In this document: positions 22,653 to 25,657 of the stretch, piece by piece | How positions within the stretch are numbered: the first letter of the stretch is position 1 | Layout: each line of letters begins with the position of its first letter | NCBI GenBank assembly: GCA_964016885.1 | Contig: OZ024743.1 | Coordinates: forward strand, 216,814,001 to 216,878,000 | DNA: 64,000 bases | Reading direction: 5' to 3' | Origin: Eledone cirrhosa | Lineage: Eukaryota | Translations under genes and position numbers: made by a program | Notes under the pieces: generated by a model | Databases searched by the model: none | What the model was told of the DNA's origin: nothing | The model's input: the letters and a program-made list of their open reading frames with translations, nothing else

Positions 22653-25600
22653 ATAAATTGAAACAAAATGAAAACGAAATTTCATTTCTCACTCTTAGTA
22701 TGGCACTTACTTAAATGTAAGTATGCATGTATACGTACATACATATATGTATACAGACGTACAGTAGCATGCACATATATATATATATATACATATATAT
22801 ATACATATGCATACAGGTACACATACATATATGCACGTATCAGTTTAGCGGCGCTAACGTCGCTTTGTTCGTTTGTAAACAAACTGAACAGCCTGAATTT
22901 ATGCCATACGGTGTTAAGGCAACCACGTCACCTATTTGTTCAACACTGACACAGGAACGATGTACTAGTTTCAAGCTTGTTAGCTATCATCAGCACCGTT
23001 TACCCATCTGCCAGATAGTTGAACGTTGGAAAGTATATACTTTCCTTATGAAACTTAACGGCTGAGCAGCCTAATTTGCATATTGAGTGAGTTAAATCGG
23101 TCAGGCATACCGAAAACGATAAATTGAAACAAAATGAAAACCAAATTTCATTTCTCACACTTAGTATGGCACTTACTTAAATGTAAGTATGCATGTATAC
23201 GTACATACATATATGTATACAGACGTACAGTAGCATGCACATATATATATATATATACATATATATATACATATGCATACAGGTACACATACATATATGC
23301 ACGTATCAGTTTAGCGGCGCTAACGTCGCTTTGTTCGTTTGTAAACAAACTGAACAGCCTGAATTTATGCCATACGGTGTTAAGGCAACCACGTCACCTT
23401 TTTGTTCAACACTGACACAGGAACGATGTACTAGTTTCAAGCTTGTTAGCTATCATCAGCACCGTTTACCCATCTGCCAGATAGTTGAACGTTGGAAAGT
23501 ATATACTTTCCTTATGAAAATTAACGGCTGAGCAGCCTAATTTGCATATTGAGTGAGTTAAATCGGTCAGGCATACCGAAAACGATAAATTGAAACAAAA
23601 TGAAAACGAAATTTCATTTCTCACTCTTAGTATGGCACTTACTTAAATGTAAGTATGCATGTATACGTACATACATATATGTATACAGACGTACAGTAGC
23701 ATGCACATATATATATATATATATACATATATATATACATATGCATACAGGTACACATACATATATGCACGTATCAGTTTAGCGGCGCTAACGTCGCTTT
23801 GTTCGTTTGTAAACAAACTGAACAGCCTGAATTTATGCCATACGGTGTTAAGGCAACCACGTCACCTTTTTGTTCAACACTGACACAGGAACGATGTACT
23901 AGTTTCAAGCTTGTTAGCTATCATCAGCACCGTTTACCCATCTGCCAGATAGTTGAACGTTCGAAAGTATATACTTTCCTTATGAAAATTAACGGCTGAG
24001 CAGCCTAATTTGCATATTGAGTGAGTTAAATCGGTCAGGCATACCGAAAACGATAAATTGAAACAAAATGAAAACGAAATTTCATTTCTCACTCTTAGTA
24101 TGGCACTTACTTAAATGTAAGTATGCATGTATACGTACATACATATATGTATACAGACGTACAGTAGCATGCACATATATATATATATATATACATATAT
24201 ATATACATATGCATACAGGTACACATACATATATGCACGTATCAGTTTAGCGGCGCTAACGTCGCTTTGTTCGTTTGTAAACAAAGTGAACAGCCTGAAT
24301 TTATGCCATACGGTGTTAAGGCAACCACGTCACCTATTTGTTCAACACTGACACAGGAACGATGTACTAGTTTCAAGCTTGTTAGCTATCATCAGCACCG
24401 TTTACCCATCTGCCAGATAGTTGAACGTTGGAAAGTATATACTTTCCTTATGAAAATTAACGGCTGAGCAGCCTAATTTGCATATTGAGTGAGTTAAATC
24501 GGTCAGGCATACCGAAAACGATAAATTGAAACAAAATGAAAACGAAATTTCATTTCTCACTCTTAGTATGGCACTTACTTAAATGTAAGTATGCATGTAT
24601 ACGTACATACATATATGTATACAGACGTACAGTAGCATGCACATATATATATATATATACATATATATATACATATGCATACAGGTACACATACATATAT
24701 GCACGTTTCAGTTTAGCGGCGCTAACGTCGCTTTGTTCGTTTGTAAACAAACTGAACAGCCTGAATTTATGCCATACGGTGTTAAGGCAACCACGTCACC
24801 TTTTTGTTCAACACTGACACAGGAACGATGTACTAGTTTCAAGCTTGTTAGCTATCATCAGCACCGTTTACCTATCTGCCAGATAGTTGAACGTTGGAAA
24901 GTATATACTTTCCTTATGAAAATTAACGGCTGAGCAGCCTAATTTGCATATTGAGTGAGTTAAATCGGTCAGGCATACCGAAAACGATAAATTGAAACAA
25001 AATGAAAACGAAATTTCATTTCTCACTCTTAGTATGGCACTTACTTAAATGTAAGTATGCATGTATACGTACATACATATATGTATACAGACGTACAGTA
25101 GCATGCACATATATATATATATATACATATATATATACATATGCATACAGGTACACATACATATATGCACGTATCAGTTTAGCGGCGCTAACGTCGCTTT
25201 GTTCGTTTGTAAACAAACTGAACAGCCTGAATTTATGCCATACGGTGTTAAGGCAACCACGTCACCTTTTTGTTCAACACTGACACAGGAACGATGTACT
25301 AGTTTCAAGCTTGTTAGCTATCATCAGCACCGTTTACCCATCTGCCAGATAGTTGAACGTTCGAAAGTATATACTTTCCTTATGAAAATTAACGGCTGAG
25401 CAGCCTAATTTGCATATTGAGTGAGTTAAATCGGTCAGGCATACCGAAAACGATAAATTGAAACAAAATGAAAACGAAATTTCATTTCTCACTCTTAGTA
25501 TGGCACTTACTTAAATGTAAGTATGCATGTATACGTACAGACATATATGTATACAGACGTACAGTAGCATGCACATATATATATATATATACATATATAT

Positions 25601-25657
25601 ATACATATGCATACAGGTACACATACATATATGCACGTATCAGTTTAGCGGCGCTAA
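22653..25657 (-). mobile_element. Tandem array of ~6.4 near-identical 466-468 bp units, each with an HHR (non-LTR retrozyme-like)
   Basis: HHR landmark recurs at 22956, 23422, 23890, 24358, 24824 and 25290. TA tracts flank both sides. Confidence 0.93.
22956..23000 (-). ncRNA. Type I hammerhead ribozyme, first of six (also 23422-23466, 23890-23934, 24358-24402, 24824-24868, 25290-25334)
   Basis: AACGGUG-CUGAUGA-UAGCUAACAAGCUU-GAAA-CUAG-UA-CAUCGUU. Stem II AGCU/AGCU, palindromic stem III, and stem I extended by CUGGCA/UGUCAG and GUUCAAC/GUUGAAC. Confidence 0.9.

What the first reader, a model, noticed from the sequence alone, without database searches (positions are those of the whole stretch)
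22653..25657. Young six-unit retrozyme-like array (466-468 bp) with an intact type I hammerhead in every unit
Seen in sequence: near-identical head-to-tail units with no credible ORF. Each has a complete HHR on the minus strand with palindromic stem III (ACUAGU) and a long bulged stem I extension. Copies at 1-300 and 62.1 kb keep the fold (for example CUGGCA becomes CUGACA against UGUCAG). Established: animal non-LTR retrozymes are tandem repeats with type I HHRs that give monomeric and circular RNAs and are thought to use PLE enzymes; HHRs with a palindromic stem III cleave as dimers. Inference: a recently active family, with the array made by rolling reverse transcription of a circular monomer.
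Basis: partly seen in the sequence, partly recalled or inferred. Interest (0 to 1): 0.78.

Follow-up and report, generated by a model that had tools for sequence, protein, structure and literature searches.

The report
Octopus hammerhead retrozyme in TA tracts
This is a real, young run of a 467-base non-coding repeat, each copy carrying a self-cutting "hammerhead" RNA motif, in what looks like an octopus genome; it belongs to a known kind of animal mobile repeat, but its insertion ends give unusually direct hints about which jumping-gene enzyme copies it.

Summary
Confirmed: six full 466-468-bp units plus a 205-bp part (22653-25657) sit inside a (TA)n tract, and each full unit has a complete type I hammerhead on the minus strand with palindromic stem III. 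Folding predicts an inactive monomer and a favourable double hammerhead. This is a new member of the known non-LTR retrozymes, most likely from an octopod. Cleavage and RNA circles are untested.

Three additions. (1) Neither array end is the cleavage site; the 3' end lies 310 nt downstream, abuts TA, and is shared with an older copy at 62.1 kb, as expected for internal initiation by a Penelope-like RT. (2) That older copy has a twin-priming-type 5' inversion and is fused, with no TA between, to a Hydra-clade Penelope fragment. That makes Hydra a specific candidate partner, though two successive insertions are likelier than one event. (3) Two variants are shared at a three-unit lag, which a monomer-only circle does not predict; a trimer block was probably copied.

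The older copies keep most pairs but show no two-sided compensation and are probably decayed. No genome was held, so copy number is unknown.

The parts
22653..25657 (-). Retrozyme array: six full units and a 205-bp 5' part-unit; RNA sense is the minus strand
22938..23024 (-). Type I hammerhead of unit 1 with extended stem I; core 22993-22963, cleavage after GUA at 22963; stem II U-AGCU-AACA-AGCU-U; stem III ACUAGU
23429..23459 (-). Hammerhead core, unit 2
23897..23927 (-). Hammerhead core, unit 3
24365..24395 (-). Hammerhead core, unit 4
24831..24861 (-). Hammerhead core, unit 5
25297..25327 (-). Hammerhead core, unit 6
16602..22655 (.). (TA)n tract at the element's 3' end; 3-nt ATA/TAT overlap with the unit marks the inferred priming site
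25658..27254 (.). (TA)n tract at the 5' end
62109..62721 (-). Older subfamily copy, 1.4 units of 431 bp; same 3' end position, also on (TA)n; hammerhead core 62415-62385
62718..62813 (+). Inverted 5' piece of that copy (sources 62448-62475 and 62294-62359), with the ribozyme hairpin deleted; twin-priming geometry
62812..62977 (-). Inverted 5' piece of a Hydra-clade Penelope-like element, joined to the retrozyme piece through a 2-nt CG overlap
62978..63760 (+). Broken Hydra-clade endonuclease region and 3' end with degenerate hammerhead (63697-63726), ending on (TA)n
1..307 (+). Decayed copy of the older subfamily, cut by the window start and followed by a LINE reverse-transcriptase fragment; core 58-88 with A9 to G

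Best explanation
A non-autonomous non-LTR retrozyme family of an octopod, with at least two subfamilies. SHOWN in sequence: tandem non-coding units, a complete type I hammerhead in each, dispersed copies, a common 3' end on (TA)n, a 5' inversion in one copy. COMPUTED: a lone ribozyme slips into an inactive register, two neighbours can pair their ACUAGU palindromes into a double hammerhead. INFERRED: read-through transcripts are cut between adjacent ribozymes into monomers and short multimers, a host ligase closes them, and the monomer circle is protected from re-cutting. A Penelope-like protein nicks (TA)n DNA and starts cDNA synthesis inside the RNA, about 310 nt downstream of the cleavage site, then copies more than one unit length. 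A three-unit block was probably copied twice in this array (about 0.65: trimeric RNA circle 0.35, later DNA duplication or conversion 0.30). Partner, my odds: Hydra clade 0.40, the younger Neptune-like family 0.35, Naiad or other 0.25.
For: Anatomy and controls. Active monomer costs +7.6 kcal/mol; double hammerhead -57.0 against -55.4 for two relaxed monomers. Monomer folds at z -11.2, partly owing to its self-complementary TA-like segment. Array and 62-kb copy both end at unit position 1 on TA, 310 and 276 nt from the cleavage site; a Penelope RT starts internally, nicks AT-rich DNA on both strands and needs no ribozyme cleavage (PMC11167929). The 62-kb copy breaks at unit position 182 and its inverted piece covers 186-367, the geometry of twin priming (PMC2246262 passage; the detailed geometry is recalled); inverted 5' pieces are typical of Penelope insertions (PMC8557442). 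It is fused to a fragment with the Hydra CxCX5C linker and no CCHH; Hydra families insert in (TA)n, carry hammerheads and occur in Octopus. One public run (X5) holds pieces of both subfamilies, one crossing the unit junction. Host: the five best hits of a neighbouring Penelope RT fragment are Octopus proteins at 66-70%.
Against: No cleavage, transcript or circle has been shown. In Xenopus only 1 of 9 predicted retrozyme dimers cleaved in vitro (10.64898/2026.07.22.740005). U-U at the base of stem II weakens the ribozyme; a similar axolotl motif cleaved 22% in an hour as a monomer (PMC7229834). No two-sided compensatory change in 28 pairs, with only 3 sequences, and the minimal ribozyme is not clearly more conserved than the unit's 3' end (4 of 45 against 5 of 57 differences). 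The unconstrained two-molecule fold (-58.1) is a different, inactive structure. The shared 3' end rests on 2 copies. (TA)n tracts are abundant (11% of the window in perfect runs). No target-site duplication can be read. The Hydra fragment is old and broken whereas the array is young; the unit has no convincing similarity to its 3' end (best 11 of 12 nt, E 0.6).
Confidence: 0.75

Rival explanations
1. One reading: all units were written in one pass around a single monomeric circle; shared variants are recurrent RT errors at hotspots.
For: Units differ by 0-4 substitutions; the array is a non-integer 6.44 units and reads through six intact cleavage sites. Only 1 of 9 variant sites is a transition, against 92 of 165 in six other repeat pairs of the window (P 0.008, post hoc), which hints at polymerase or base-calling error rather than germline mutation.
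Against: Both shared variants fall at lag 3, and units 3 and 6 are identical in substitutions; simulated P 3.6e-4 for two shared sites, 7.5e-5 with equal lag, under uniform mutation. Hotspots would raise these values.
Confidence: 0.2
2. A pLTR-derived repeat that entered as a short copy and grew by unequal crossing-over as a minisatellite; the ribozyme is a relic and no circle is made.
For: Lag-3 sharing fits a DNA duplication; this route is proposed in 10.64898/2026.07.22.740005; no compensatory changes.
Against: Core, stem II and palindrome are intact in the array and in the 62-kb copy despite 22% overall divergence; the unit resembles no Penelope 3' end tested in the window (4 tested); the 62-kb copy is itself longer than one unit and has an inverted 5' piece.
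Confidence: 0.15
3. The array's length or variant pattern is partly an assembly product: two haplotypes stacked, or polishing with reads from other copies.
For: It lies between 6-kb and 1.6-kb low-complexity tracts; the variant spectrum is odd; no read spanning the locus could be examined.
Against: The unit junction also occurs in a contig of run X5, and the 62-kb copy shows tandem structure with 8% divergence between its units.
Confidence: 0.12
4. Mobilised by an ordinary LINE (such as the fragment at 307-1850) rather than a Penelope-like element.
For: Twin priming was defined for L1; a LINE RT fragment abuts the 1-307 copy.
Against: No poly(A) or shared LINE tail; copying starts inside the unit; the (TA)n target is shared with two Penelope families in the window.
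Confidence: 0.07

Closest known systems
Metazoan non-LTR retrozymes (Cervera and de la Pena 2020, PMC7229834; coral, mussel, axolotl)
   Same: Tandem non-coding units, low GC, type I hammerhead in each unit, highly self-paired monomer, coexistence with Penelope-like elements. Palindromic one-pair stem III as in axolotl HHR_Amex1; U-U at the base of stem II as in HHR_Amex2.
   Different: Unit of 466-468 bp is just above their 150-450 bp; both weak features occur in one ribozyme; cephalopods are not named in the parts I read (their supplement could not be read); expression and cleavage are untested here.
Retrozymes as non-autonomous Penelope derivatives (Li, Clavereau, Pollet 2026, 10.64898/2026.07.22.740005)
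   Same: Meets their working definition of an active retrozyme; size and copy number are within their ranges (51-972 bp; most families up to seven units).
   Different: Their link is co-occurrence and pLTR homology in Xenopus; no mollusc sampled. Here no pLTR homology was found, but insertion-end anatomy and a physical fusion to a Hydra-clade fragment were.
Hydra-clade Penelope-like elements, e.g. Hydra-1_Obim (Craig et al. 2021, PMC8557442)
   Same: (TA)n target, hammerhead near the 3' end, inverted 5' piece; the 62.8-63.8-kb fragment has the clade's motifs.
   Different: The retrozyme encodes nothing and is not a recognisable piece of that element; the fragment is a different, decayed family by eye.
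Rfam Hammerhead_HH9 (RF02275)
   Same: Type I topology, core and A-rich loop II.
   Different: 18.5 bits against gathering 52; no stable stem III; U-U for G10.1-C11.1.

Membership tests
Non-LTR retrozyme | Complete type I hammerhead in each tandem unit (at least two consecutive) | tested here: met
   6 of 6 full units; 101-nt fold -28.9 kcal/mol
Non-LTR retrozyme | Tandem unit of a few hundred bases, GC under 50% | tested here: met
   466-468 bp, GC 0.33-0.34; slightly above the 150-450 bp of PMC7229834, inside 51-972 bp of the 2026 preprint
Non-LTR retrozyme | No protein encoded, no LTR arrangement | tested here: met
   primer-binding site and polypurine tract were not searched for separately
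Non-LTR retrozyme | Highly self-paired monomer | tested here: met
   z -11.2, 0 of 100 shuffles; 68% paired as a circle
Non-LTR retrozyme | Dispersed copies | tested here: met
   Three loci in the window; pieces of both subfamilies in run X5; no genome-wide count possible
Non-LTR retrozyme | Target-site duplication longer than 4 bp, when present | tested here: inconclusive
   (TA)n on both sides hides any duplication
Non-LTR retrozyme | Self-cleavage of the RNA | not testable with these tools
   Only energies computed
Non-LTR retrozyme | Linear and circular monomer RNA in tissue | not testable with these tools
   Needs RNA blots or RNase R-treated libraries
Non-LTR retrozyme | Coexistence with autonomous Penelope-like elements | tested here: inconclusive
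   Broken fragments of at least two kinds in the window; no intact element seen
Rfam Hammerhead_HH9 | Score at or above the gathering threshold | tested here: not met
   18.5 of 52 bits
Hydra-clade PLE (fragment 62812-63760) | CxCX5C linker, no CCHH, CxxC before the conserved E | tested here: met
   CSCRKPEAC and CGLCIDE in the translations against the definition and alignment; 129 of 150 listed hits carry CxCX5C
Hydra-clade PLE (fragment 62812-63760) | Hammerhead near the 3' end and (TA)n insertion | tested here: met
   63697-63726, GAAA changed to CAAA in this copy, intact core in the copy at 63896-64000; ends on TA
Hydra-clade PLE (fragment 62812-63760) | RWK and DKT motifs in the RT; placement in an RT tree | not testable with these tools
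   RT region absent from the fragment; of 8 long hits 7 have YRDD, 1 RWK, 2 DKT/DKS, 0 DKG

The most novel reading that the evidence does not exclude
The 62.1-63.8-kb composite is one insertion event in which a Hydra-clade Penelope protein copied its own RNA from one side of a TA break and retrozyme RNA from the other, identifying the enzyme that moves an animal retrozyme; and the young array was written by rolling twice around a trimeric RNA circle, so multimeric circles are real transposition intermediates.
Probability: 0.2. Interest if true: 0.75.

Novelty: new member of a known kind. Interest (0 to 1): 0.5.

Why it matters
The class is known, so the array itself would not surprise a specialist. 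What is open in print is which enzyme moves animal retrozymes and whether arrays are written from circles or grow as satellites (PMC7229834 and the 2026 preprint both leave this as hypothesis). This window offers testable specifics: a defined start site 310 nt from the cleavage site, a (TA)n target, a twin-priming inversion, a named candidate clade, and a variant-phase test that can be run on every array in a genome. It would also add cephalopods as hosts of ribozyme-made circular RNA.

Tried and rejected
No genome is held for this window, so no copy count. Whole-window Rfam scan: the 150 listed of 515 matches were low-complexity hits, nearly all microRNA models and all below gathering score. 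Exact-pattern scans found 0 matches in metagenome contigs, viral contigs and genome contigs. Sequencing runs: no RNA holder listed; this says nothing about expression. 20 of 24 rows hold part of the stretch under many organism labels; I laid 4 of 24: X24 gave 0 reads in 1938 million letters (no test), X1 0 (may be a filter), X18 one 151-nt contig at depth 3.2, X5 13 contigs. Horizontal transfer cannot be judged from this; cross-contamination is as likely, and contig depth is no copy number. One search used a mis-registered structure string and is void; one search replaces it. The word-indexed protein search for the Hydra fragment found nothing and Pfam gave no family for it; the HMMER search did. 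The Ts/Tv baseline used 6 of 9 pairs; left out were a failed 30-bp alignment, a pair with no differences, and a very young pair with 0 transitions and 2 transversions. The bacterial promoter scan is irrelevant to this host. Similarity of the unit to four other element ends gave only the shared hammerhead with the second element and matches of 13 nt or less, or E above 0.3. Earlier-finding look-ups by sequence, place and long word list were empty. Not-in-print claim for octopus retrozymes and for retrozyme-Hydra fusions rests on searches and on 0 occurrences of hammerhead, ribozyme or retrozyme in PMC13282606; supplements of PMC7229834 and of the preprint were not seen and could list a cephalopod.

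Full report
Observation. The array is real. It runs from 22653 to 25657 with period 466, 6.4 copies and 99% matches, between (TA)n tracts at 16602-22655 and 25658-27254. It has six full units of 466-468 bp and a 205-bp part; they differ at 9 substituted sites and by one TA repeat. A descriptor scan found a complete type I hammerhead on the minus strand in 6 of 6 full units, with cleavage after GUA at 22963 and every unit thereafter; 0 of 1000 shuffled units gave one. Stem I is 7 bp with a long bulged extension. Stem II is four pairs closed by U-U, and stem III is the palindrome ACUAGU. Rfam sees it only weakly (HH9, 18.5 bits, gathering 52). No credible ORF exists.

Host. The five best hits of a Penelope RT fragment at 58162-58941 are Octopus sinensis and O. 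bimaculoides proteins at 66-70% identity, then Argonauta at 57%. I therefore read the window as octopod DNA; this is an inference from a mobile element. No genome is held.

Ribozyme logic. In the lowest-energy fold of one ribozyme the core slips into a register that pairs over stem III; forcing the active monomer costs 7.6 kcal/mol. A double hammerhead with a 6-bp palindrome helix scores -57.0 against -55.4 for two relaxed monomers, while the unconstrained two-strand fold is a different structure at -58.1. This matches the published view that short palindromic stem III ribozymes cut as dimers in multimers and stay quiet in monomer circles (PMC4209133, passages). The axolotl motifs show each weak feature separately and cut well only as dimers (PMC7229834, results and discussion read). 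Activity here is not shown, and only 1 of 9 predicted Xenopus dimers cleaved (10.64898/2026.07.22.740005, abstract to discussion read).

Other copies. Relatives lie at 62109-62721 (78%) and 1-307 (75%); they are 87% alike to each other and form an older subfamily. Over 28 pairs, 78 of 84 cells pair and 4 pairs change on one side, but none on both. The 1-307 copy has lost A9 and the palindrome. Run X5 holds 13 contigs on the unit: one of 113 nt with 2 differences crosses the unit junction, and all 4 listed substitutions of another match the 62-kb copy. So both subfamilies exist beyond this window. Depth there is no copy number, and X5 may not be independent of the assembly.

Insertion ends. Neither end of the array is the cleavage site. 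The RNA 3' end lies 310 nt downstream of it, and the 62-kb copy ends at the same unit position, 276 nt downstream in its shorter unit. Both abut (TA)n with a 3-nt overlap. A cleaved linear RNA copied from its end would stop at GUA, so copying began inside the RNA. The one Penelope protein studied in vitro starts internally, nicks AT-rich DNA, extends both strands and does not need ribozyme cleavage (PMC11167929, main text read); that paper reports no homology between start site and target, so the 3-nt overlap here may be incidental. The 5' breaks of both copies fall in a hairpin at about the same place (106 and 95 nt downstream of a cleavage site); with two cases this is only a lead.

The 62-kb composite. 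Between two TA tracts (62019-62111 and 63761-63806) lie, in order: the 1.4-unit retrozyme copy, an inverted retrozyme piece (62718-62813), an inverted Penelope piece (62812-62977) and a forward Penelope endonuclease region with its 3' end (62978-63760). The retrozyme copy breaks at unit position 182 and the inverted piece covers 186-367, lacking 252-339, which is the ribozyme hairpin. That is twin-priming geometry (defined for L1; PMC2246262, passage; details recalled), and inverted 5' pieces are common in Penelope insertions (PMC8557442, passages). The Penelope fragment has the CxCX5C linker, lacks CCHH and has CxxC before the conserved glutamate, which define the Hydra clade (section read). 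It resembles Hydra-1_Obim by eye (supplement passages), and 129 of the 150 listed HMMER hits carry CxCX5C. Hydra families insert in (TA)n, bear hammerheads and occur in Octopus. The two inverted pieces meet through a 2-nt CG overlap with no TA between. One event with two templates is possible. But each half already has its own twin-priming geometry, so two successive insertions into one tract with loss of the TA between them is likelier (my odds 0.65 to 0.35). Either way the retrozyme copy carries the marks of target-primed insertion.

Competing partner. A second Penelope family with a C-terminal GIY-YIG domain and Neptune-like zinc motif (clade label by motif only) has younger copies, carries a minimal hammerhead, and ends on (TA)n in 3 of 4 copies. 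Naiads also target (TA)n in Octopus. The Hydra fragment here is broken and old, so the enzyme behind the young array is not fixed.

How the array was built. Two variants are shared, one by units 1 and 4 and one by units 3 and 6; units 3 and 6 are identical in substitutions. Under uniform independent mutation two shared sites have P 3.6e-4, and with equal lag 7.5e-5. A single pass around one monomer predicts private variants only. A three-unit block was probably copied, either by two turns around a trimeric circle or by later DNA duplication or conversion; the pattern cannot separate these. Hotspot errors or assembly effects remain possible. Only 1 of 9 sites is a transition, against 92 of 165 in six other repeat pairs (P 0.008, post hoc); this hints at polymerase or sequencing error and is weak.

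Comparison. The element works like, and by every feature testable here is, a metazoan non-LTR retrozyme; cleavage and circular RNA, two defining features, could not be tested. I found no report of octopus retrozymes or of a retrozyme fused to a Hydra element (searches, listings only; PMC13282606 passages and one short supplement). Two unread supplements could change that. Earlier scan notes describe similar elements in other genomes; I did not test them.

Verdict. A new member of a known kind, with junction evidence that makes the open question of retrozyme mobilisation testable. Interest 0.5. Confidence in the main reading 0.75; in the boldest reading 0.2.

Noticed in passing
window 21328-21723 (+): A second, unrelated hammerhead element in the same TA tract: 311-bp unit, 1.27 copies, core at 21563-21593 with the same U-4bp-AACA-4bp-U stem II and palindrome ACGCGU; 3' end 130 nt past the cleavage site, on TA. 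Probably a second retrozyme family.
   Followed up: partly
window 5733-8007 and 47224-48380: A third TA-flanked tandem array (period about 620, 97-98% alike) with a 78% relative in the opposite orientation. It has a CUGAUGA half-core on the minus strand but no complete hammerhead by my scans and no Rfam match.
   Followed up: partly
window 39981-41642, 45561-46507, 26813-26865, 15627-15939: 3' ends of a young Penelope family (GIY-YIG, Neptune-like motif) with a minimal hammerhead (CUGAAGA, bulged G, long stem II); includes a near-perfect inverted pair; 3 of 4 ends on (TA)n.
   Followed up: partly
window 63830-64000 (-): Second Hydra-type 3' end, tail-to-tail with the first in the same TA/GA tract; hammerhead core intact, U-U at the base of stem II, palindrome ACAAUUGU; extends further 3' than the first copy.
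   Followed up: partly
window 55796-61728: Broken Penelope RT and endonuclease frames on the minus strand at 56832-59445 with a 1.6-kb inverted repeat (55796-57366 against 60161-61728).
   Followed up: partly
window 307-1853 (+): LINE RT fragment with a PHD-like finger and a (TGA)n tail directly after the 1-307 retrozyme copy.
   Followed up: no
window 22840-22870 and 62270-62300: Both subfamilies have a hairpin at the same position with unrelated sequence, and both 5' breaks fall in it.
   Followed up: partly
run X5 laid on window 22969-23004: Loose ends show at least one low-depth contig sharing only the 35-nt core and stem II with unrelated flanks, possibly another hammerhead family.
   Followed up: no
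window 2384-2765 and about a dozen other places: A dispersed 190-bp SINE-like repeat, 80-94% alike.
   Followed up: no
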